Made by a program: the position numbers and the translations under genes
The notes under the pieces: model-generated
Databases searched by the model: none
Told to the model about the DNA's origin: nothing
What the model saw: only the letters and a program-made list of their open reading frames with translations
Part shown: positions 2,065-31,661 of the stretch, piece by piece
How positions within the stretch are numbered: the first letter of the stretch is position 1
Layout of the letters: each line of letters begins with the position of its first letter
UHGV virus genome: UHGV-0203498
Length of the DNA stretch: 32,670 nt
Reading direction: 5' to 3' (one strand)
Source of the DNA: a virus

Positions 2065-2126
2065 TATGCAGTCCCCTTTTTTATGCAGTTGCCGATTGAC
2101 ATTGTATCAGCGAATTTAAAACAATC

Positions 2127-2289
2127 CTTATGCAGTCTCAGACGAGGGGGGTGCCAGACCCCCCGTCTAGTCTGAAAGACTGGGGTGCTGTCCCGCTGTC
2201 CCGATCGGCTGAAACCCGCGGCAGCACTGCGGGGGACGGGGTGCTGTCCCGCTTTGTCCCGCCCCTGGTCTGTCCCGCTTTTTGTCCCG
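2127..2289. repeat. Copy A of a ~163-bp structured repeat element (imperfect long palindrome followed by a GTCCCGC heptamer array)
   Basis: 2128-2203 is identical to 18923-18999 and 2233-2289 is identical to 19027-19083; a ~29-nt variable segment separates the two identical arms. Contains the near-palindrome CAGTCTCAGACGAGGGGGGTGCCAGACCCCCCGTCTAGTCTGAAAGACTG. Confidence 0.85.
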
Positions 2290-2447
2290 TTTGTTTTATG
2301 TAGTAAAACTGAATAGGTATGCACTTTTTCAGGGGGTGCCGTAGCGGGACGTCCCGCTTGTCCCGCTTTTAGTTTATGCAATAAAAGTAAATAGGTATGC
2401 AGTTTTCGAGGGGCGGGACAAAACGGGACGTCCCGCTTGTCCCGCTT
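2290..2447. repeat. Two tandem ~79-bp units (TTTATGCAATAAAA...AGGGGG...GGGACGTCCCGCTTGTCCCGC)
   Basis: Units begin at 2295 and 2374 with TTTATG(C/T)A(A/G)TAAAA and end with GGGACGTCCCGCTTGTCCCGC. Perfect 10-bp palindromes GGGACGTCCC lie at 2346-2355 and 2425-2434. Confidence 0.8.
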
Positions 2448-2450
2448 TAT

Positions 2451-3126
2451 TATGCGGGGTTTTGCTGCGCCATTTCATCGAGCGCGATTCGCTCCATTAG
2501 CTTGATATCTTTAAACGCACGTTGCTCGTTTTCGATGCCGTGCATCTTAAATAGCCATTCCAGTACGCCGTAGTCGATGCCGTATGCGCCACCGAATCCG
2601 GTGCGCCATTGCGTGGCGCAATCCGTGAATACGGCGACTATCTTCGCGTTGTCGGGCCATAGCGCAACAGGCGGACAAACATCTTCGGGGGCCGCGCCCC
2701 ATAAACTCGCGGCTAAATCCTCGGAGGGTGGCGGCGGGCCATAATAGCGTCGCGCCGCCTCAATTAGTTTTTTTCACGCAATCCCATCAGTTCGAGATAG
2801 TACGAGGTATGGAACACGCCGAACGCGCGCGGATAGTTGACTACCAGGCGGCGGACGTTCTCCGCATTAAATTCGTCCGGCAGATTCCAGCCTTCGGCGA
2901 CGTGCATGATGGCCTCGACCATAACGTTAAAGCCATCAGGGTCGTTGTCGTCATATTCCGATAGCTTGCGTTCCGTTTCCTGCATGGTCTGCGAAAACTC
3001 GTCAATCGGGCGGTGCCGGACGGTAAACGTCATCTTGCCTGGTTCGTTCTCGCCAGGGCGCGGGATCTCAATCGGCAGCTTAAAGGTTGGCTTAGGGTCG
3101 AGTGTGAAGAGTGGGGCTTTAGCCAT
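2451..3126 (-). CDS. Tail assembly chaperone frameshift fusion (gpGT-like), made by a programmed -1 shift at A AAA AAC (2767-2773)
   Basis: The -1 frame downstream of the heptamer is open for ~104 codons (KKLIEAARRYYGPPPPSEDLAASLWGAAPEDVCPP...MAQQNPA, stop at 2453..2451) and has no start codon of its own. This is the conserved G/GT arrangement upstream of tape measure genes. Confidence 0.55.
2764..3126 (-). CDS. Tail assembly chaperone (lambda gpG-like), 0-frame product
   Basis: ATG at 3126 is preceded by GGAG. Position is between the major tail gene and tape measure gene. The ORF ends in the slippery run GAA AAA AAC TAA. Confidence 0.6.
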   Translation of the reverse strand: MAKAPLFTLDPKPTFKLPIEIPRPGENEPGKMTFTVRHRPIDEFSQTMQETERKLSEYDDNDPDGFNVMVEAIMHVAEGWNLPDEFNAENVRRLVVNYPRAFGVFHTSYYLELMGLREKN

Positions 3127-8644: not shown

Positions 8645-8674
8645 TTGCAATCTGGGTGTTGGTTGCACTATATT
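8645..8674 (+). promoter_or_regulatory. Putative sigma70-like promoter for the DnaN-like moron (TTGCAA-N18-TATATT), overlapping TTGGTTGCAC motifs
   Basis: TTGCAA at 8645-8650 and TATATT at 8669-8674; TTGGTTGCAC copies at 8659-8668 and 8673-8682; palindrome TTGGT-N5-ACCAA at 8673-8687 just before the RBS. Confidence 0.4.
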
Positions 8675-8703
8675 GGTTGCACACCAACAACGAGGAAATG
8701 AAA

Positions 8704-12286: not shown

Positions 12287-13672
12287 TTAGTAGAAGTCTA
12301 CAGTTGGAACAACGGCGATTGGGCGAATCACAGGGAACAAGTGCGCAATTGGATAGCCCGCTGCATCGTTCATGTGGTCCACTCCGGCGGTTTTATCCGG
12401 CTCGCCTTTCTTCAGGTCGTAAACCTGCTGTTCCAGGCATTTCGCTAGTGTAGGGCATTTATCCAGGTTGACAAAATACTGGCGCACGCCCTTCGAGTTG
12501 CACATCATCGTATTCATCGCGATCAATCGGTCTTTCACAGGCGGGTTAACGCTGTCATATTCCACCTCGAAGCCTGCGTCTTCCAGTTGCGCGATATCTG
12601 ACGAAGAGGCGTTAACCGTCTTACGCGACTTGCCGCTGCTATCCGGGTAAACGACAACCCGACCGGCAGCACAATGATCGGGGTAGCGCTCCTCGATCGC
12701 CTCAATCATAGCCGGGGTGTCAAACAGGTCCACAAATTCATCCACTGCGTGGATTTCGTCGCGGAACTCCTTGTTCTCGGTAGTGCGCTGCCGTCTGACG
12801 TACACAACCGCAGCCATTTTCGTGACGTTAAAGTCCATACCAATAATCAACGTGTCATCCGGTTGCACTTCTTCGGTGCTGGCGTTCTCCTCACGGTTGA
12901 ACATCTTGTATACTGCGCCCGACGTAAGGTTGACAAACAGGCCGTTCAGGTACGCATCAATCAGGTTAGCCGGGTACTGACTGCGCAGCGTGTCGATAAA
13001 GTCTGCCGGTAGGTGGTGGTTATCGGTGGTCTTCGCCCGGATCAAACGCTTCTGGCTATCCTTCTCCACTTCAAAAATCTGGTACATCGCCCGGTAGCCT
13101 TCAGGCGTGGATACGATGACAAACTGGCGCACCAGACCCGCACGCAGACGACCAAGCAATTTGTGATACGCCGCAATTGCGACGTCCTGCTTAGTAGTGT
13201 CGAACTCATCGGCAACAATCCACGCGGCGTTAACACCGATAAGGCGGGTATAGTTCTCCATTGACTCACAAATAACGCGCGTCCATTTGCCTTTCACCAG
13301 CACGCTATAAATCTTGTCCTGCTTGTTGAACTTCCACCGGAAGCCAGCCTCGTCGAAAGCCTTCTCCAGCTCCGGATACATGATTTTAACCAGGAGTGGG
13401 ATAGTCGGCTCGGTCACGATGCCGTCATGACCAGGGTTCAGTGTCAGAAGCTGGATGACCTTACGTGCTGCAACCCATGACTTACCACCACCGAAGCCGG
13501 AACACAGACCGAGGATTTTAGTCTTAGTGTCCCGCAGTAGTTCCACCTGGTGCGGAAGGCAATCAGGCTGATACAGGCGGACGGCCTGTGCAACTCGCGT
13601 TGGGCGTGGCGGTCGGTTGCGCTTTGCGATCGCGCGTTCCAGGGCGCGGTGTTCTGCCGCATAGTTGCGCAT
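12287..13672 (-). CDS. Terminase large subunit
   Basis: Walker A GLCSGFGGGKSW and Walker B-like IVADEFD; 461 aa; its start overlaps the small-subunit stop (TAATG). Confidence 0.85.
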   Translation of the reverse strand: MRNYAAEHRALERAIAKRNRPPRPTRVAQAVRLYQPDCLPHQVELLRDTKTKILGLCSGFGGGKSWVAARKVIQLLTLNPGHDGIVTEPTIPLLVKIMYPELEKAFDEAGFRWKFNKQDKIYSVLVKGKWTRVICESMENYTRLIGVNAAWIVADEFDTTKQDVAIAAYHKLLGRLRAGLVRQFVIVSTPEGYRAMYQIFEVEKDSQKRLIRAKTTDNHHLPADFIDTLRSQYPANLIDAYLNGLFVNLTSGAVYKMFNREENASTEEVQPDDTLIIGMDFNVTKMAAVVYVRRQRTTENKEFRDEIHAVDEFVDLFDTPAMIEAIEERYPDHCAAGRVVVYPDSSGKSRKTVNASSSDIAQLEDAGFEVEYDSVNPPVKDRLIAMNTMMCNSKGVRQYFVNLDKCPTLAKCLEQQVYDLKKGEPDKTAGVDHMNDAAGYPIAHLFPVIRPIAVVPTVDFY

Positions 13673-14223
13673 TACTCACCCTGGCCTTTGCCTGTAGGTT
13701 CGACAACGACGTCGCCGTTATCATCTTCGTCATCATCCAGCGGAATATCGTCGCGGACGCCGTGGTTGGCTTTAAGCAGGAACGTAGCGAAGCCCGCCGC
13801 GATGGTGACGCCGCCAGCTTCCATCAGGAAAGTTTTCTGCAATTCCATAGCGTCCGCCATCGCCTCGGCGAACTCCTCATGTGCGCGCGCCCAGCGGTAC
13901 AGGCAGGCGATGCCAACCCCAATATCCGCAGCAAAGCGACCGAGAGTCGGCATCTTGTGGCGGGGAATGACTTGCGCAGCGCCCTTGTCGGAGTAGTTGA
14001 TCTGCCAGGCTACGGCATCGGCAAAATAGCGGCGAAGCTGGTCGCAATACACAGTGCGGTAGTCTGTCGGGCGCCCACATTTGCCGCCTTTACGACGCTT
14101 GCCATATTCGATCTCAGGTCCAAGATTGGTATGTTCGGTTTGCTCGCCTGGTTTACGGCGCGGGGTGACTGCCACTCGACCGTCCAGTTTGGCACGACGG
14201 CCCTTAACTCTGATTTCTGCCAT
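13672..14223 (-). CDS. Terminase small subunit
   Basis: Directly upstream of the large subunit gene. N-terminal basic DNA-binding-like region GRPTDYRTVYCDQLRRYF and an acidic C-terminus. Start taken at ATG 14223; ATG 14244 is also possible. Confidence 0.65.
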   Translation of the reverse strand: MAEIRVKGRRAKLDGRVAVTPRRKPGEQTEHTNLGPEIEYGKRRKGGKCGRPTDYRTVYCDQLRRYFADAVAWQINYSDKGAAQVIPRHKMPTLGRFAADIGVGIACLYRWARAHEEFAEAMADAMELQKTFLMEAGGVTIAAGFATFLLKANHGVRDDIPLDDDEDDNGDVVVEPTGKGQGE

Positions 14224-14353
14224 GATATAAGCCCTTTTATGCATATGCGCCGACCATCGGCAACATAGGAGACGGCCCTGCCATCTAAGGGGGATTATAA
14301 CAGGCACAAAAAAGCCCACCAAATCGGCAGGCTGGGAGGCTTACGGGTTGCCG

Positions 14354-15496: not shown

Positions 15497-15649
15497 ATTA
15501 ATTTAATTCCTGATTGAGAGGACCGGGGACAATATACCACGGTCGCTATAGTAATTCGCAAATAACCATACCTACGAATGCCGCTGTGGCCCATATTGCC
15601 AATACCCAAATATCATTGCGTGTCATAGTGTGTTACTCCTTCTCGTTGA

Positions 15650-15685
15650 TTGGTTGCAGTATGGTCTCTATGTTGGTTGCAAGTC
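15650..15685 (+). promoter_or_regulatory. ATTGGTTGCA motif pair
   Basis: GATTGGTTGCAG and TGTTGGTTGCAA lie 24 bp apart, immediately beside the 15691-15716 hairpin. Confidence 0.45.
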
Positions 15686-18732: not shown

Positions 18733-18776
18733 TGCAACCAATATAACAGGGTGCCAGGGTGACTGCAACCAATATT
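18733..18776 (-). promoter_or_regulatory. ATTGGTTGCA motif pair with overlapping promoter-like hexamers upstream of gene 18711
   Basis: On the minus strand: ATATTGGTTGCAGTCACCCTGGCACCCTGTTATATTGGTTGCACACCAACAGGAGG. Confidence 0.45.
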
Positions 18777-18921: not shown

Positions 18922-19083
18922 TTTATGCAGTCTCAGACGAGGGGGGTGCCAGACCCCCCGTCTAGTCTGAAAGACTGGGGTGCTGTCCCGCTGTCCCGCT
19001 CCTCTGGAAGCCGCGTCATCCGTGGGCGGGACGGGGTGCTGTCCCGCTTTGTCCCGCCCCTGGTCTGTCCCGCTTTTTGTCCC
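18922..19083. repeat. Copy B of the ~163-bp structured repeat element
   Basis: 18923-18999 is identical to 2128-2203 and 19027-19083 is identical to 2233-2289, in the same orientation, 16.8 kb from copy A. Confidence 0.85.
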
Positions 19084-19132
19084 GCTTACTTTATGCAATA
19101 AAAATGCATAATTATTCACTATATTCACACTA

Positions 19133-19216
19133 CACGGCAACCAATACGACCAGCTAAAAACACGCAATCTGGCAACCAATGCGCGCAGAAATTAACCAAC
19201 ATGGCAACCAATGCGC
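19133..19216 (-). promoter_or_regulatory. Three ATTGGTTGCC motif copies, including an exact 17-bp direct repeat
   Basis: Plus-strand GGCAACCAATGCGCGCA occurs at 19172-19188 and 19200-19216; a third GGCAACCAAT is at 19133-19142. Located downstream of the primase gene stop. Confidence 0.5.
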
Positions 19217-19223
19217 GCAAATT

Positions 19224-21488
19224 TTAATCTTTCAAGTCATCGTCTGTCGCCGAAAGCGTGATTGGGATATCCGATTTGATAACCAAATTAGACGACCCAT
19301 ATATGGCCCCGGTGTGTGGATCTGTGTAAAAACCGAGCACGCCGCGCTCGACCATATCGTCAATTGCCTTCGTCGATGTGCCACCTTTCGCGAGTCCCGC
19401 CTGGCGGACAATTGCCGATTTACTGAATCCAGTATGATCCGGGTTATCTTCCATCAGTTTTTCCAGTGCCGCATAAAGCACTTTTTCTTTTTCTGTGCGC
19501 GGTCCGGCGGTGTTCTCTTCCTTAACTGCGGCTTTGCCCGCGGCCTTCGCCTGTTCGATAGCGAACGGTGCCAGGGCAACCGGTACGAGGTAGAGAGTCT
19601 CGTCGCGTGGCGTGGAGGCGATAGGCTTGACGTCCCAACCGGCAACCACATCGCCGAAGTCAGGCCCAGCGCTGGTGGACTGGTGGGCTTCGAACGCCTC
19701 GGACTTGCGGAGATCCACCTTCACCTTGCACTTGAGCAGGACGAAGCCGCGCGGCGCTTGCTTGATGCCGTTACGAGACTTCTCGTGGTACAGGTTGAGT
19801 TGGCCTGGCTGGTTGTCGTCTGGCTGTTCCAGGAAGAACGCAGAATCGACAGCACCATGAAGCGCGCCGGATCCGCGTGGCGTTCTGCTGCCGTTTGCAC
19901 CTTTAGCCGGGTGGTGGATGACGCCCGCGCTGCCGCCTGTATTTTCCGCAATGGCCTTCAGCGCCTTGACTACCTCGCCCATATCGCTGGCGTTGTTCTC
20001 GTCGAATGGCTTGGCATCGGCGGACCGCAGCGCGACAGTCTGGTTGAGTGAGTCGAATGCCACCAGGCCAACCGGTTCGCCATTCGCGGTGCGATTGATA
20101 AAGCTGATAACTTCGCGCAGGCCAGACTTGCTGGTGATATCCCAGCCGCGTGACTGCAGGTCTATAATGTGCAACTTGTCCAGGTCGTGCTCGTATTTGA
20201 TCTGCAATGCTTCCTTACGCTGGCTGGAGGCTTCGCCGCCTTCCGCATCGAAATAGAAGCAATGGGACTGGACGACCTTCGCACCGCCAAACGGGATACC
20301 AGCGGCAACCGCGCCCATCTGACCCAGCACGTAGAACGACTTACCGATGTTCGACTCACCGGCGAGATACCAGGTCGATTTGAAGTTAACCAGGCCTTCG
20401 ATGATCGGGTCGTGTTTACTGAACAGGGCGACCGGCTCGTTGTCCAGGTCTGCATCTGTGCATTCGCCGAACTCGTCGCCGTCACCGACCGCGTCCACGA
20501 TATGCTCGTAGCATGATTCCACTTCCTCGTCGTCCAGCCCCGGAAGGATGGCGGCGATCTGCTTACGTGACATGTTGTGCGGTTCGACGTTCAGGTGGTC
20601 CGGGATACCGATCAGACGCAGCGCCAGGTGCTGGTGTTTATTCAGTTCTGAGCAACACTCGTTACCGGTGTGCATACACTTGAAACGGATCTCGCCATCC
20701 TTAACCAGGATTGCCGTTGACCCTTCGCCACTGTGCAGGTGTTCGTTAGGACACGGCACTTCATAGCCGCGACCGGATGACAGGGGTTCAAAGCCCGCCT
20801 GGAAGCACCAGTCCAGGATGCCGTCTGCCACACCGCCGTCGCCCTGGGTCAGTTCGTGGCGTACTTCCTCTTTCTCAACTCCCAGCTTGTCAGCCAGGCG
20901 GAGCAGACGACGGACGCGGGCACGCTTGCCGTAGTGGCACTTAACGACAGCCTGCTGGTGCGGCAGGTACATAAGGCGGTTTGTGTCTTTCGTGCAATCG
21001 TCGAAAGCCACATCAGACAGGCCCAGTTGGTCTAACAACGCATACTGGACGCGGCCCAGGTCTTCCGCCGGTACAGGCTTGTCAGTGAGCACCAGGAAAC
21101 GAGCGCAACGCGTGCCACCTTTCAGCGGGTGTCGGTCGCCGGTAGTGGTGTGGAAGACGTGCTCCAGTCCCGCGTCGATGAACGCCTTACGGCAGCGGCG
21201 TAAGGTGCTGGTGTCGGTGCGGTCAATATCGAAGAACAGGATCGAGCGGTCCACCGCACTGGTCTTACGACGCAATCCGTCACGGGTATACGCCACTATG
21301 CCATCAGCCTTACGCTTGCGGCGCGCATACTCGGCTTTATCTTCCGTCTTGTTGATATGCACCGACGATATTTCTTTCGCATCTTTGATAAATTCGAAAA
21401 ATTCATCAGTGGTCATCTGGAAGTTTTCCGCCCTGGCTTTTTCGCCTTTTTTAGCGGGTTTTGTTACAGCGAATTTAATTAAGCTCAT
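19224..21488 (-). CDS. DNA primase / helicase (primase-polymerase-like N-terminal domain, zinc-binding middle region, P-loop ATPase C-terminal domain)
   Basis: N-terminal ILFFDIDRTD (hhhhDhD primase-polymerase-like motif); Cys/His cluster CPNEHLH...CMHTGNECC; Walker A AGESNIGKS and Walker B-like GLVAFDSLN. Confidence 0.8.
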   Translation of the reverse strand: MSLIKFAVTKPAKKGEKARAENFQMTTDEFFEFIKDAKEISSVHINKTEDKAEYARRKRKADGIVAYTRDGLRRKTSAVDRSILFFDIDRTDTSTLRRCRKAFIDAGLEHVFHTTTGDRHPLKGGTRCARFLVLTDKPVPAEDLGRVQYALLDQLGLSDVAFDDCTKDTNRLMYLPHQQAVVKCHYGKRARVRRLLRLADKLGVEKEEVRHELTQGDGGVADGILDWCFQAGFEPLSSGRGYEVPCPNEHLHSGEGSTAILVKDGEIRFKCMHTGNECCSELNKHQHLALRLIGIPDHLNVEPHNMSRKQIAAILPGLDDEEVESCYEHIVDAVGDGDEFGECTDADLDNEPVALFSKHDPIIEGLVNFKSTWYLAGESNIGKSFYVLGQMGAVAAGIPFGGAKVVQSHCFYFDAEGGEASSQRKEALQIKYEHDLDKLHIIDLQSRGWDITSKSGLREVISFINRTANGEPVGLVAFDSLNQTVALRSADAKPFDENNASDMGEVVKALKAIAENTGGSAGVIHHPAKGANGSRTPRGSGALHGAVDSAFFLEQPDDNQPGQLNLYHEKSRNGIKQAPRGFVLLKCKVKVDLRKSEAFEAHQSTSAGPDFGDVVAGWDVKPIASTPRDETLYLVPVALAPFAIEQAKAAGKAAVKEENTAGPRTEKEKVLYAALEKLMEDNPDHTGFSKSAIVRQAGLAKGGTSTKAIDDMVERGVLGFYTDPHTGAIYGSSNLVIKSDIPITLSATDDDLKD

Positions 21489-22229: not shown

Positions 22230-22760
22230 ATGTTTGAGCAAATCGTAAACCTGATCACACGCGGCGTAGTAGCACTGGAAACCATCGCGAAGCATTATGA
22301 AACCGTCGGTGCTGCCGTGGACCCAAAAGCGAACGGCACAGCTAAGAAAGGCAAGGCTAAGCCGGAAACCGAAGTCGAAGACGACGATCAGGACGAAGTA
22401 GAAGATACGCCTAAAGCGAAAAAAGGCGCGGCAAAAGAAACCAAGTCTAAAGGTAAGGCTAAGAAGGAAGTCGTAGAAGATGAAGACGACGAAGCGGAAG
22501 AAGAAGCTCCGGCGAAGTCTAAGAAAGCGAAAGGCAAAGGTAAGAAAGAAGCTGACCCGCTGGCAGAAATGCGCGACGAAATCAAACAGTATGCCGCTAT
22601 TATTGCAGGCGGTGATGATGATGATGCGAACGACGAATTTGATGACCTGCTGGAATCGTATGAAATTAAATCCATCGCCAAGCTGGAAGACGACGACGTC
22701 GAAGACTTCCACAAAGATTTAAAAGAAATCGTCGAAACCTATTTCGAACTGGAAGATTAA
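22230..22760 (+). CDS. Highly acidic, lysine-patch low-complexity protein (first early gene)
   Basis: ATG at 22230 preceded by GGAG at 8-nt spacing; alternating K-rich and D/E-rich blocks (KKGKAKPETEVEDDDQDEVED..., DEDDEAEEEAPAKSKKAKGKGKK). The ORF-track start at 22050 is unlikely. Confidence 0.5.
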   Translation: MFEQIVNLITRGVVALETIAKHYETVGAAVDPKANGTAKKGKAKPETEVEDDDQDEVEDTPKAKKGAAKETKSKGKAKKEVVEDEDDEAEEEAPAKSKKAKGKGKKEADPLAEMRDEIKQYAAIIAGGDDDDANDEFDDLLESYEIKSIAKLEDDDVEDFHKDLKEIVETYFELED

Positions 22761-25003: not shown

Positions 25004-25795
25004 ATGGCTAAAGTCAACCTGAAAAATGTGCGCGTATGCTTCCTGAAAATTTGGGAGCGTGATACCCCAAAACAGGATGGGCAGAAACCGGCATACCGTG
25101 CCGTTATTCTTCTGGATAAAGAAGATCCGCAGGTGGACAAAGTGGAAGCGGCAGCGCGCGCAGTGCTCACCGACAAGCTGAAATCCGAGAAGAATGCCGA
25201 TAAGTGGATGGACCGCCACTACGCACAGGACTCTAAGGAGTGCGCCGTCCGCGACGGTGACGAGCGCGACGAAGTAACCGAAGAGTTTGAAGGCATGTTG
25301 TACATCAACGCCAAGTCGTTTAAACAGCCTAACATCCAAACGTCACTGGGCGAGAAGCAGACCGAACAGGGTCTGACCGTAGAAGGCGACGAGATCGAAG
25401 GCCAGGAGATCTACTCCGGTTGTTACTGCAACGTGTCCCTCGATATTTGGGCGTGGAACAACACCAACGGCAAAGGACTCGGTGCCGGATTGCTGGGTCT
25501 GCGCTTCCGCGAAGACGGTGATGCCTTCGGCGGTGGTGGGTCTTCTTGCACCGATGACGATCTGGACAACGACGACGAAGACGAAGCACCGCGCAAGTCT
25601 AAAAAGTCAAAACGTCGTGATGACGACGATGATGATGACAAGCCGCGCAAGTCCAAGAAATCCAAGCGCCGCGATGACGACGACGATGAGGAAGAGGAAA
25701 AACCTCGCAAACGTCGTAAGCCACGCGATGACGAAGATGAGGACGATGATGACGATGACGACGATGTAAAACCTCGCAAACGTCGCCGCCGTTAA
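25004..25795 (+). CDS. Single-stranded DNA-binding protein (gp2.5-like) with a repetitive basic/acidic C-terminal tail
   Basis: ATG at 25004 preceded by GAGGAA at 8-nt spacing. N-terminus MAKVNLKNVRVCFLKIWE resembles gp2.5-like phage SSBs. The C-terminus is built of repeats such as PRKSKKSKRRDDDDDDD. Confidence 0.55.
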   Translation: MAKVNLKNVRVCFLKIWERDTPKQDGQKPAYRAVILLDKEDPQVDKVEAAARAVLTDKLKSEKNADKWMDRHYAQDSKECAVRDGDERDEVTEEFEGMLYINAKSFKQPNIQTSLGEKQTEQGLTVEGDEIEGQEIYSGCYCNVSLDIWAWNNTNGKGLGAGLLGLRFREDGDAFGGGGSSCTDDDLDNDDEDEAPRKSKKSKRRDDDDDDDKPRKSKKSKRRDDDDDEEEEKPRKRRKPRDDEDEDDDDDDDDVKPRKRRRR

Positions 25796-28649: not shown

Positions 28650-28924
28650 CCCCAGAAGGCAAGATTCAAAGCTACCTGATGCGTCGGGTGAAAGCGGTGG
28701 GTGGATTCTGCCGCAAAGTGGCCTGGGAGGGGCGCGCAGGTGCGCCCGACCTGATTATCATCATCAACGGCATCATTGTATTCGTCGAAGTGAAGCGCCC
28801 AGGGGGAAAACCGAAGCCGCACCAGGTGCGAGAGCATGCGCGGATGGCCCGCCGCGGTGCTGACGTTCGCGTCATTGACAACATAGCCGACTGTGATTTA
28901 TTGGTTGCTGAATTGGTCGCATAG
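28646..28924 (+). CDS. VRR-NUC domain nuclease
   Basis: GAPDLIII...VFVEVKRPGGKPKPHQ matches the PD-(D/E)xK core of VRR-NUC domains; start coupled to the upstream stop (ATGA). Confidence 0.8.
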   Translation: MTPEGKIQSYLMRRVKAVGGFCRKVAWEGRAGAPDLIIIINGIIVFVEVKRPGGKPKPHQVREHARMARRGADVRVIDNIADCDLLVAELVA

Positions 28925-31627: not shown

Positions 31628-31661
31628 ATTGGTTGCATAATCATATTGGTTGCATTATATT
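31628..31661 (+). promoter_or_regulatory. ATTGGTTGCAT motif pair forming a sigma70-like promoter (TTGCAT-N17-TATATT)
   Basis: Motifs at 31628-31638 and 31645-31655; -35 at 31633-31638 and -10 at 31656-31661. Confidence 0.45.

What the first reader, a model, noticed from the sequence alone, without database searches (positions are those of the whole stretch)
2127..2289. A ~163-bp structured element present twice, upstream of the tape measure gene and upstream of the late/lysis operon
Two near-identical direct copies (2127-2289 and 18922-19083) share 76-bp and 57-bp identical arms around a ~29-nt variable core. Each has a long imperfect palindrome (CAGTCTCAGACGAGGGGGG...CCCCCCGTCTAGTCTGAAAGACTG) followed by a GTCCCGC array. 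Both lie just upstream, in the minus-strand transcription direction, of gene strings that contain intrinsic terminators. That placement fits a cis-acting element such as an antitermination RNA (put/nut-like) or a binding array for a late regulator; iterons or a packaging site are alternatives. Copy A also occupies a ~390-bp gap between the chaperone frameshift gene and the tape measure gene, which are usually adjacent.
Basis: seen in the sequence. Interest (0 to 1): 0.8.

Follow-up and report, generated by a model that had tools for sequence, protein, structure and literature searches.

The report
Duplicated phage replication-origin iteron module
The twice-occurring 163-bp element is most likely not an antitermination RNA but an array of binding sites (iterons plus a palindrome) for the phage's own primase-helicase, i.e. 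its replication origin, of which this phage genus unusually keeps a second copy inside the tail-gene operon.

Summary
Copy A (2128-2289) and copy B (18923-19084) share identical 76-bp and 57-bp arms around a 29-nt core. Each has a stable palindrome and an array of GTCCCGC repeats. The window is a Dhillonvirus (HK578/SO-1-like coliphage), and all 159 relatives carry the element, nearly always twice.

The evidence points to a replication origin rather than an RNA. Copy B lies just downstream of the 754-aa primase-helicase gene. In 16 unrelated phage contigs, GCGGGAC arrays sit next to a homologous AAA_25 helicase gene, in most starting at its stop codon. No contig without an array has such a gene. 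Relatives picked by protein similarity have the same layout with lineage-specific repeats (CGGACAA, GGGGAGA, TCGCAA).

Two Salmonella-type phages have helicases 97-98% identical, except in the C-terminal winged-helix domain (43%). They have exactly swapped repeats. That domain is modelled as a winged helix.

RNA tests were negative: no covariation, weak z-scores, no Rfam hit, and conserved promoters lie downstream of both copies. Copy A is Dhillonvirus-specific and evolves in concert with copy B. Its role is inferred only; it could be a second origin, an enhancer or a copy-control site. The kind is known (SaPI Rep/ori, P4 ori/crr); the duplication into the tail operon is the unusual part.

The parts
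2128..2289 (.). Copy A of the 162-bp module: left arm 2128-2203, copy-specific core 2204-2232, right arm 2233-2289
   Evidence: Present in all 159 Dhillonvirus records.
2133..2182 (.). Compound palindrome of copy A (CAGTCT CAGACGAGGGGGG-loop-CCCCCCGTCT AGTCTGAAAGACTG). Stems are invariant and the loop is hypervariable among relatives.
   Evidence: Alignment of 32 copies. DNA fold z = -4.7. Equivalent hairpins occur in relatives with 44-68% helicase identity.
2190..2289 (+). GTCCCGC iteron array of copy A: 2190, 2198 (GTCCCG), 2246, 2256, 2272, 2284 (GTCCCG), plus an inverted GGGAC in the core. It reads GCGGGAC on the gene-sense minus strand.
   Evidence: Repeat positions are conserved while the spacers vary.
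2290..2449 (.). Extension of region A: two 79-bp units. Each is an AT-rich module (2290-2335, 2368-2413; 60-77% AT) followed by head-to-head iterons (GCGGGAC·GTCCCGC TTGTCCCGC at 2344-2366 and 2413-2445).
   Evidence: (D3, D5, I3). On the + strand these read as terminator-like hairpins.
2101..2109 (-). Invariant extended -10 promoter element TGATACAAT between copy A and the tape measure start codon (2064)
   Evidence: Alignment of 16 relatives: CTGATACAAT is invariant.
18923..19084 (.). Copy B of the module: palindrome 18928-18977; iterons at 18985, 18993, 19026 (inverted), 19041, 19051, 19067, 19079
19086..19130 (.). AT-rich module flanking copy B (70-80% AT). It is homologous to the AT-rich modules of region A and to GTGAATAGTTATGCAGAAAAAGTGAATAG in AH01, FSL SP-031 and L177.
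   Evidence: (D3).
19224..21488 (-). Primase-helicase gene (754 aa; AAA_25 helicase at residues 357-531), the proposed initiator. Its stop codon is 139 nt upstream of copy B.
   Evidence: PHROG 3228 'replicative helicase-primase', E = 0. Pfam AAA_25, 1.3e-19.
19269..19496 (-). C-terminal winged-helix domain of the primase-helicase (residues about 665-740), the proposed iteron reader, followed by an acidic tail
18740..18768 (-). Conserved promoter downstream of copy B: TTGCAG-N17-TATATT. The hexamers are conserved and the spacer is variable.
   Evidence: Alignment of 16 relatives.

Best explanation
The GTCCCGC repeats (GCGGGAC on the gene-sense strand) are iterons. They are short binding sites for the C-terminal winged-helix domain of the phage's own primase-helicase. 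Together with the adjacent palindrome and an AT-rich module they form the phage's replication-origin cassette.

Copy B, just downstream of the primase-helicase gene, is the ancestral origin. The protein would bind the array, assemble on it and open the neighbouring AT-rich or palindromic DNA. It would then load itself as the replicative helicase and prime synthesis. This is how self-loading initiator-helicases of SaPI islands and phage P4 work.

Copy A is a Dhillonvirus-specific duplicate of the same cassette, inserted between the tail chaperone (G/GT) and tape measure genes. It is elaborated with two extra units of AT-rich DNA plus inverted iterons. It should bind the same protein and act as a second origin or as a cis-acting partner of copy B, like P4 crr or the R6K origins.

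Shown here: the sequence anatomy, the association of the arrays with helicase genes, the covariation of repeat sequence with the winged-helix domain, and concerted evolution of the two copies. Inferred: protein binding, origin firing, and the role of copy A.
For: 1. Association found by motif. Of 120 IMG/VR loci picked only by GTCCCGCNNNGTCCCGC, 24 carry arrays of at least 4 motifs per 300 bp. The only window protein with homologs next to them is the primase-helicase, in 14 of 24 array loci against 0 of 96 non-array loci. Pfam adds 2 more loci with Prim-Pol+AAA_25 proteins and 4 with other primase-type proteins, giving 20 of 24.

2. Position. In 11 distant loci (23-28% identity) the array starts from just before the stop codon of the helicase gene to 106 nt after it.

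3. Replication. A second motif scan repeated the pattern. 6 of 9 new non-Dhillonvirus array loci have a helicase homolog, 5 of them with the array at the gene's 3' end. Of 7 non-array loci, none has a strong homolog and one has a marginal hit (E = 9e-6).

4. Protein-first test. Relatives chosen by protein similarity all have a 280-580 bp non-coding gap after the gene with lineage-specific repeats. AH01 has CGGACAA/GGACAA x9, the strongest 6-mer cluster in its genome. L172 and L173 have TCGCAA x9-10, FSL SP-031 has GGGGAGA, L175 has GCGGAA, and L156 has GCGGGAC.

5. Specificity switch. The L177 and FSL SP-031 helicases are 98% and 97% identical in the N-terminal and helicase domains but 43% in the winged-helix domain. 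Their origins share flanks but have CGGACAA replaced by GGGGAGA at each position. Phages with the same repeat share the start of the recognition helix.

6. Fold. The C-terminal 100 aa models as a winged helix.

7. Origin-like anatomy. AT-rich modules are flanked by oppositely oriented repeats. A stable palindrome sits at the equivalent position in five lineages.

8. Conservation and concerted evolution. The element is in all 159 Dhillonvirus records. Within-genome A-B arm identity is 92.0%, against 89.3% (A-A), 89.5% (B-B) and 88.8% (A-B across genomes), permutation p = 0.0007. The core is copy-specific.

9. Precedent. SaPI Reps read 5-6-nt iterons placed immediately downstream of rep through a C-terminal winged helix (PMC9371898). 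The pRN1 origin is a stem-loop downstream of its primase-helicase gene (PMC4234260).
Against: No binding, melting or replication data exist for this phage.

Cumulative GC skew follows transcription direction and does not mark either copy.

The window's winged-helix domain shows no significant profile similarity to the C-termini of the distant GCGGGAC-bearing helicases (hhalign E = 0.056). A shared reader for the shared 7-mer is therefore unproven, and the distant loci were ascertained by the motif itself.

Guernseyvirinae relatives (32% identity) show no array within 3 kb of the gene.

Copy A sits in a late structural operon, an odd place for an origin. Single-copy relatives such as AH01 evidently replicate without it.

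The apparent compensatory changes in the palindrome could reflect inverted protein sites rather than a hairpin.
Confidence: 0.68

Rival explanations
1. Cis-acting RNA in the late (minus-strand) transcript, such as a put-like processive antiterminator. The palindrome folds in the nascent RNA and modifies RNA polymerase so that it reads through the terminators in the lysis, head and tail operons.
For: There are two copies in the same orientation upstream of long gene strings that contain some strong terminators. The palindrome is stable. Weak promoter-like sites ([TGMATA]-N17-[CATAAA], read by eye; TTGCCG-N18-AATAAT at 19140-19111) lie upstream of the arrays and could transcribe them. Read-through from upstream genes is also possible.
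Against: Whole-element RNA stability is unremarkable (z = -1.9 and -1.3). RNAalifold on 31 distinct copies finds only the invariant palindrome and no compensatory pairs. Rfam gave no match. The conserved promoters lie downstream of both elements. Terminator-like sites are not enriched. This model does not explain why the repeats follow helicase genes in unrelated phages or switch with the winged-helix domain. AH01-type relatives have one copy only, next to the helicase gene.
Confidence: 0.06
2. Upstream activating or operator array. The repeats bind a protein, either the helicase itself or the 109-aa HTH protein encoded just upstream of it, to control the conserved promoters immediately downstream of each copy. 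This would time tape-measure and late-operon expression and would not initiate replication.
For: Each copy sits just upstream of a conserved promoter: 19 nt from an extended -10 for copy A, and about 155 nt from a -35 for copy B. An HTH gene (Sigma70_r4_2/HTH_23) precedes the helicase gene.
Against: The HTH protein has no homolog in the distant array loci; only the helicase does. In distant phages the arrays abut the 3' end of the helicase gene whatever lies downstream. Repeat type switches with the helicase's own winged-helix domain. No arrays precede the other late promoters in the window.
Confidence: 0.12
3. Copy A binds the primase-helicase but is not an origin. It could be a titration or handcuffing locus that limits or times initiation at copy B, like incA of plasmid P1 or incC of F. 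It could instead be a protein roadblock or terminator that sets the ratio of chaperone to tape-measure transcripts.
For: Single-copy relatives replicate with copy B alone. Region A has head-to-head repeats that form terminator-like hairpins, and HK578 annotators marked a terminator there. A separate promoter restarts transcription downstream. The two copies evolve in concert.
Against: Region A has the more complete origin anatomy, with two AT-rich modules each flanked by opposed repeats. Negative copy control has no obvious use in a lytic phage.
Confidence: 0.2
4. A small RNA gene on the plus strand, antisense to the late genes, running from the promoter-like site at 2096-2125 to the T-rich ends at about 2290, 2370 or 2450.
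For: TTGACA-N18-AACAAT scores 10 of 12 and points into copy A. Plus-strand terminator-like hairpins follow it.
Against: The -10 reads AACAAA or AACCAA in all 14 relatives aligned, losing the key final T. Copy B has no equivalent promoter. There is no covariation and no Rfam hit.
Confidence: 0.03
5. A packaging (pac) recognition site or a mobile repeat (MITE).
For: Repeated motifs are typical of some pac sites.
Against: Neither copy is near the terminase genes (12287-14322). There are two copies 16.8 kb apart. There was no match in 5,426 E. coli genomes or 72,556 plasmids, and the element is confined to Dhillonvirus.
Confidence: 0.02

Closest known systems
SaPI Pri/Rep-ori replicons (self-loading initiator-helicases of Staphylococcus pathogenicity islands; PMC9371898)
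   Same: The helicase, fused to a primase in SaPI5, carries a C-terminal winged-helix domain. That domain reads 5-6-nt iterons placed immediately downstream of its own ORF, around an AT-rich region with repeats in opposite directions. Repeat specificity differs between lineages.
   Different: SaPI Reps are placed with the AAA+ superfamily 3/MCM-type helicases (PMC9371898). This protein has a RecA-type AAA_25 (RepA-like) helicase, with no detectable homology. The repeat here is a 7-mer, accompanied by a G/C-rich palindrome. The host element is a lytic phage with a second copy 17 kb away.
Phage P4 alpha protein with ori and crr (from my own knowledge: Flensburg & Calendar 1987; Ziegelin et al. 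1993; Yeo et al. 2002)
   Same: One polypeptide combines primase, helicase and a C-terminal winged-helix origin-binding domain. Its octamer repeats lie in two separate cis regions (ori and crr) several kb apart, one beside the alpha gene.
   Different: P4 alpha is a superfamily-3 helicase. Here the two regions are near-identical duplicates kept alike by concerted evolution, and one lies in the tail operon. Whether both are required is untested.
pRN1 ORF904 and its stem-loop origin (PMC4234260)
   Same: A primase-helicase with a winged helix. The origin is a stem-loop in the non-coding DNA just downstream of the gene. The authors note similar arrangements in bacteriophages.
   Different: pRN1 is an archaeal plasmid with an SF3 helicase, and its origin is a 100-nt stem-loop without a described iteron array.
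RSF1010 RepA helicase and oriV (from my own knowledge)
   Same: The helicase belongs to the same Pfam family (AAA_25). That origin combines repeats, GC-rich and AT-rich segments, and hairpin (ssi) priming signals.
   Different: In RSF1010 the repeat binder (RepC), the helicase (RepA) and the primase (RepB') are separate proteins. The profile hit to PDB 1G8Y is not significant (E = 0.064).
Iteron plasmids with extra arrays (P1 incA, F incC, R6K alpha/beta/gamma; from my own knowledge)
   Same: A second array or origin at a distance binds the same initiator and communicates with the first by looping or handcuffing.
   Different: Those are low-copy plasmids with dedicated Rep proteins. Here the host is a lytic siphophage and the array is read by the helicase itself.
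HK022 putL/putR antitermination RNAs (from my own knowledge)
   Same: Two related cis elements per genome, upstream of long operons.
   Different: put sites are two-stem-loop RNAs of about 70 nt directly downstream of promoters. No such conserved RNA structure or promoter placement was found here.

Membership tests
Iteron origin read by a self-loading initiator-helicase (SaPI Rep/ori type) | The initiator-helicase carries a C-terminal winged-helix DNA-binding domain | tested here: met
Iteron origin read by a self-loading initiator-helicase (SaPI Rep/ori type) | Six or more short direct or inverted repeats in the non-coding DNA immediately downstream of the initiator ORF | tested here: met
   Copy B has 7 GTCCCGC repeats 139-239 nt after the stop codon. 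In distant homologs the array starts from just before the stop codon to 106 nt after it. Protein-selected relatives also have arrays there.
Iteron origin read by a self-loading initiator-helicase (SaPI Rep/ori type) | An AT-rich region flanked by repeats pointing in opposite directions | tested here: met
   Region A: the AT-rich modules 2290-2335 and 2368-2413 lie between + oriented and - oriented repeats. Region B has an AT-rich module (19086-19130) with repeats on one side only.
Iteron origin read by a self-loading initiator-helicase (SaPI Rep/ori type) | Repeat sequence is specific to the cognate initiator's DNA-binding domain | tested here: met
   L177 against FSL SP-031: 97-98% identity outside and 43% inside the winged helix, with CGGACAA replaced by GGGGAGA throughout. 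Same-repeat pairs share the start of the recognition helix. This is an in-silico correlation only.
Iteron origin read by a self-loading initiator-helicase (SaPI Rep/ori type) | Homology to SaPI Rep or P4 alpha (superfamily-3 AAA+ helicase) | tested here: not met
   Pfam finds only AAA_25 (RecA-type, RepA-like), E = 1.3e-19. There was no PDB sequence hit. It works like these systems but is not a family member.
Iteron origin read by a self-loading initiator-helicase (SaPI Rep/ori type) | Specific binding, melting and initiation at the array | not testable with these tools
   Needs EMSA or ChIP, marker-frequency analysis and ori-plasmid assays.
P4-type bipartite origin (ori + crr) | Two separate repeat-bearing cis regions, both required for replication | tested here: inconclusive
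   Two regions exist in all 159 relatives and evolve in concert. Whether both are required was not testable. Single-copy relatives exist.
put-like / processive antitermination RNA | A conserved multi-stem RNA structure supported by covariation | tested here: not met
   There is only one invariant palindrome and no compensatory pairs in 31 distinct copies. z = -1.9 and -1.3. No Rfam match.
put-like / processive antitermination RNA | The element lies in the transcript, directly downstream of the operon promoter | tested here: inconclusive
   The conserved promoters lie downstream of both copies. Weak promoter-like sites upstream and read-through cannot be excluded without transcript mapping.
Intrinsic terminator | A G+C-rich hairpin followed by a T/U run | tested here: not met
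   The main palindrome has no T run on either strand. Only the inverted repeats at 2343-2367 and 2424-2444 score, and only on the + strand, antisense to the genes.
AAA_25 / RepA-like replicative helicases | Pfam PF13481 domain above the gathering score | tested here: met
   71 bits against a cut-off of 27. The same domain is present in 16 array-adjacent proteins of other phages.

The most novel reading that the evidence does not exclude
The second origin cassette inside the tail operon is a replication-coupled switch. Binding of the primase-helicase, or origin melting, at copy A would gate transcription from the chaperone genes into the tape measure and distal tail genes, tying late tail expression to DNA replication. 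The paired palindromic origins would also be the ssDNA-hairpin signal sensed by defences such as OLD or Lamassu. HK578 escapers of OLD map to this helicase gene and its promoter (bioRxiv 10.64898/2026.07.10.737580).
Probability: 0.12. Interest if true: 0.75.

Novelty: new variant of a known kind. Interest (0 to 1): 0.5.

Why it matters
Dhillonviruses (HK578, SO-1 and the BASEL-collection members) are now used as model phages for defence-system studies. In the papers I could search, their origin of replication has not been mapped.

Assigning the two repeat regions as helicase-binding origin cassettes gives concrete targets for several experiments:
- replication mapping;
- engineering, such as ori plasmids or swaps of winged helix plus repeats;
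- testing the recent proposal that OLD and Lamassu sense hairpins at phage origins.

Two further results are general and make testable predictions about how initiator specificity evolves. GGGAC-type repeats mark the 3' end of primase-helicase genes in many unrelated phages. The winged-helix domain and its repeats are also exchanged as one cassette between phages.

A duplicated origin kept alike by concerted evolution inside a tail operon is unusual. It may reveal coupling between replication and late gene expression.

Tried and rejected
Tests that came back negative or uninformative:
- Rfam gathering and E-value scans found only sub-threshold miRNA-hairpin noise. No tRNA or tmRNA was found.
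- RNA folding of both strands and RNAalifold on 31 distinct copies gave no covariation.
- Cumulative GC skew of three full genomes follows gene orientation and is uninformative.
- hhalign of the window's winged helix against the C-termini of distant array-linked helicases was not significant.
- The phmmer and profile searches of PDB gave no usable relative; RepA 1G8Y scored only E = 0.064.
- A homolog search with the C-terminal 195 aa alone returned nothing, so the full-length query was used instead.

Ideas rejected or left open:
- Host repeat or MITE: no match in E. coli genomes or plasmids.
- Third copies: the '3 places' in UAE_MI-01 is region A split by the record start.
- I tried to find copy A in the 68%-identity sister group (L016/L156). 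Two motif scans found only the helicase-side copy in that contig, but the tail region itself was not retrieved, so this stays open.

Literature:
- Searches for the 7-mer, for Dhillonvirus promoters or origins, and for P4 crr found nothing directly on this element.
- The SO-1 GenBank record already annotates 'region A' and 'region B' as similar repeat regions, but its note is truncated in the tool output.

Full report
**What the window is.** Megablast of 1500-3500 matches 159 phage records at 80-93% identity, essentially all Dhillonvirus (HK578, SO-1, JL1, Gluttony and others). Late, lysis and structural genes run on the minus strand. The tape measure gene starts at 2064, and the G/GT chaperone (slippery AAAAAAAC at about 2770) ends at 2450. 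The 754-aa 'replicative helicase-primase' gene is at 19224-21488 (minus strand), preceded by a 109-aa HTH gene. Holins and endolysin lie further down.

- The two copies share identical runs of 76 bp (2128-2203 = 18923-18998) and 57 bp (2233-2289 = 19028-19084) around a 29-nt core.
- The palindrome is far more stable than shuffles (DNA fold z = -4.7).
- GTCCCGC occurs 25 times against 6.3 expected, and 17 of those lie in the two regions.
- Region A extends to about 2449 with two more 79-bp units of AT-rich DNA plus head-to-head repeats.
- The claim about terminator-containing gene strings is weak: terminator-like sites are not enriched.
- All 159 relatives carry the element, almost always twice.
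- The SO-1 GenBank record already annotates 'region A' and 'region B' as mutually similar repeat regions.

**RNA readings fail.**
- Rfam finds nothing.
- Whole-element RNA folds are barely better than shuffles (z = -1.9 minus strand, -1.3 plus strand).
- In an alignment of 32 copies from 15 or more genomes, the palindrome stems are invariant and the loop hypervariable. The seven repeat positions are conserved and their spacers vary. RNAalifold finds no compensatory pairs.
- Conserved sigma-70-type promoters lie between each element and the downstream genes. For copy A this is an invariant extended -10, CTGATACAAT, 19 nt after the element. For copy B it is TTGCAx-N17-TATATT, with a variable spacer, about 155 nt after the element. 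Transcripts from these promoters do not contain the element.

**The repeats follow primase-helicase genes.**
- An IMG/VR scan for GTCCCGCNNNGTCCCGC returned 120 loci, mostly chance hits. Of these, 24 carry dense arrays.
- tblastn of every window ORF against them found one shared protein, the primase-helicase. It was present in 14 of 24 array loci and 0 of 96 non-array loci.
- In 11 distant loci (23-28% identity) the GCGGGAC array starts from just before the stop codon of that gene to 106 nt after it.
- Pfam shows AAA_25 helicases fused to either Prim-Pol or Toprim/Zn-ribbon primases. It adds six more array loci with primase-type proteins, giving 20 of 24.
- A second scan with a different pattern repeated the result.

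**Protein-first test.** Relatives chosen by protein similarity have the same layout with their own repeats.
- Pantoea phage AH01 (50% identity) has GGACAA x9 plus a homologous palindrome after the gene. It has one copy only, and its chaperone and tape measure genes are adjacent.
- L156 (68%) has GCGGGAC.
- L172 and L173 have TCGCAA, FSL SP-031 has GGGGAGA, L175 has GCGGAA and L177 has CGGACAA.
- Kagunavirus and Jerseyvirus homologs (32%) lack an adjacent array.

**The two copies.** Arm identity between A and B of the same genome (92.0%) exceeds A-A (89.3%), B-B (89.5%) and cross-genome A-B (88.8%), with permutation p = 0.0007. The 36-column core is copy-specific (A-A 86%, B-B 79%, A-B 56%). 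The arms are therefore homogenised by gene conversion or by co-selection with the protein, and the window is the extreme case at 100%. Copy B occupies the ancestral position. Copy A is a derived insertion seen only in Dhillonvirus so far. GC skew is uninformative. The element is absent from E. coli genomes and plasmids.

**Comparison with known systems.** The logic matches SaPI Rep/ori, where a C-terminal winged helix reads 5-6-nt repeats immediately downstream of rep around an AT-rich region (PMC9371898). It also matches pRN1, which has a stem-loop origin downstream of its primase-helicase gene (PMC4234260), and P4 alpha with ori and crr (my own knowledge). It is not a member of those families, because the helicase is AAA_25/RepA-like rather than superfamily 3.

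A 2026 preprint reports that OLD-escape mutants of HK578 map to this helicase and its promoter, and proposes origin hairpins as the trigger. It does not locate the HK578 origin.

**Verdict.** The element is best explained as the phage's repeat-plus-palindrome origin cassette, read by its primase-helicase and present in a second, concertedly evolving copy in the tail operon. Binding, firing and the role of copy A remain inferences.

Noticed in passing
window 18734-18773, 19137-19212, 8658-8680, 15649-15680, 28900-28920, 31628-31653: The 9-mer ATTGGTTGC occurs 13 times exactly, and 20 times with up to one mismatch against 9.3 expected, mostly in intergenic DNA. It overlaps the -35 (TTGCAx) of the conserved promoter TTGCAx-N17-TATATT downstream of copy B, and of its 21-nt inverted twin at 8669-8689. 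Three tandem copies lie between the helicase stop codon and copy B. It may be a phage promoter family or a regulator site, possibly for the 109-aa HTH protein.
   Followed up: partly
window 19086-19130, 2290-2335, 2368-2413; L151 45190-45230; L176 1409-1441: The AT-rich module beside the repeats is conserved across genera (GTGAATAGTTATGCAGAAAAAGTGAATAG in AH01, FSL SP-031 and L177), whatever the repeat type. Its 9-mers TGTGAATAT and AGTGAATAA match the relaxed DnaA-box consensus TGTGNAWAA at 8 of 9 positions. This may be a host-factor site or an unwinding element.
   Followed up: no
L177 (IMGVR_UViG_3300048927_000029) versus L176/L174 (Salmonella phage FSL SP-031): The last ~100 codons of the primase-helicase (the winged helix), the repeats and the palindromes are exchanged as one contiguous block of about 0.55 kb between two otherwise ~97% identical phages. 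This looks like a natural swap of the origin-specificity cassette.
   Followed up: yes
L007, L015, L026, L027, L038, L042, L045, L077, L078, L103, L113, L186, L188, L190, L193, L194: GCGGGAC/GGGACAA arrays of 5-14 copies sit at the 3' end of AAA_25 primase-helicase genes in many unrelated metagenomic phages. Their primase domains differ (Prim-Pol or Toprim plus Zn-ribbon). The same 7-mer core is shared despite 23-28% protein identity and no detectable similarity of the C-terminal domains.
   Followed up: partly
L071 8990-9050; L110 8590-8650: Alternating purine-pyrimidine tracts ((GC/GT)n, potentially Z-DNA-forming) lie between two GCGGGAC arrays downstream of Toprim-type primase genes.
   Followed up: no
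window 2343-2367 and 2424-2444 (+ strand): The head-to-head repeats of region A form strong hairpins followed by T runs on the plus strand, antisense to the tail genes. They would terminate antisense transcription. HK578 annotators marked a rho-independent terminator at the equivalent place on the sense strand.
   Followed up: partly
window 19227-19268 (minus strand; residues 741-754 of the helicase): The primase-helicase ends in a conserved acidic tail (...ATDDDLKD; D and L nearly invariant in 43 homologs). This recalls the acidic C-terminal tails that recruit polymerases in T7-type replisomes.
   Followed up: no
window 2767-2774 (minus strand): A slippery AAAAAAAC just before the G stop codon is consistent with the -1 frameshift that makes the G-T tail chaperone. 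The T frame ends at 2450 with two stop codons.
   Followed up: partly
window 22479-22522, 25559-25794: Short repeats rich in Asp and Glu codons (GATGACGACGAC...) lie within plus-strand early genes. They are probably acidic tails of replication or recombination proteins such as the Gp2.5-like SSB.
   Followed up: no
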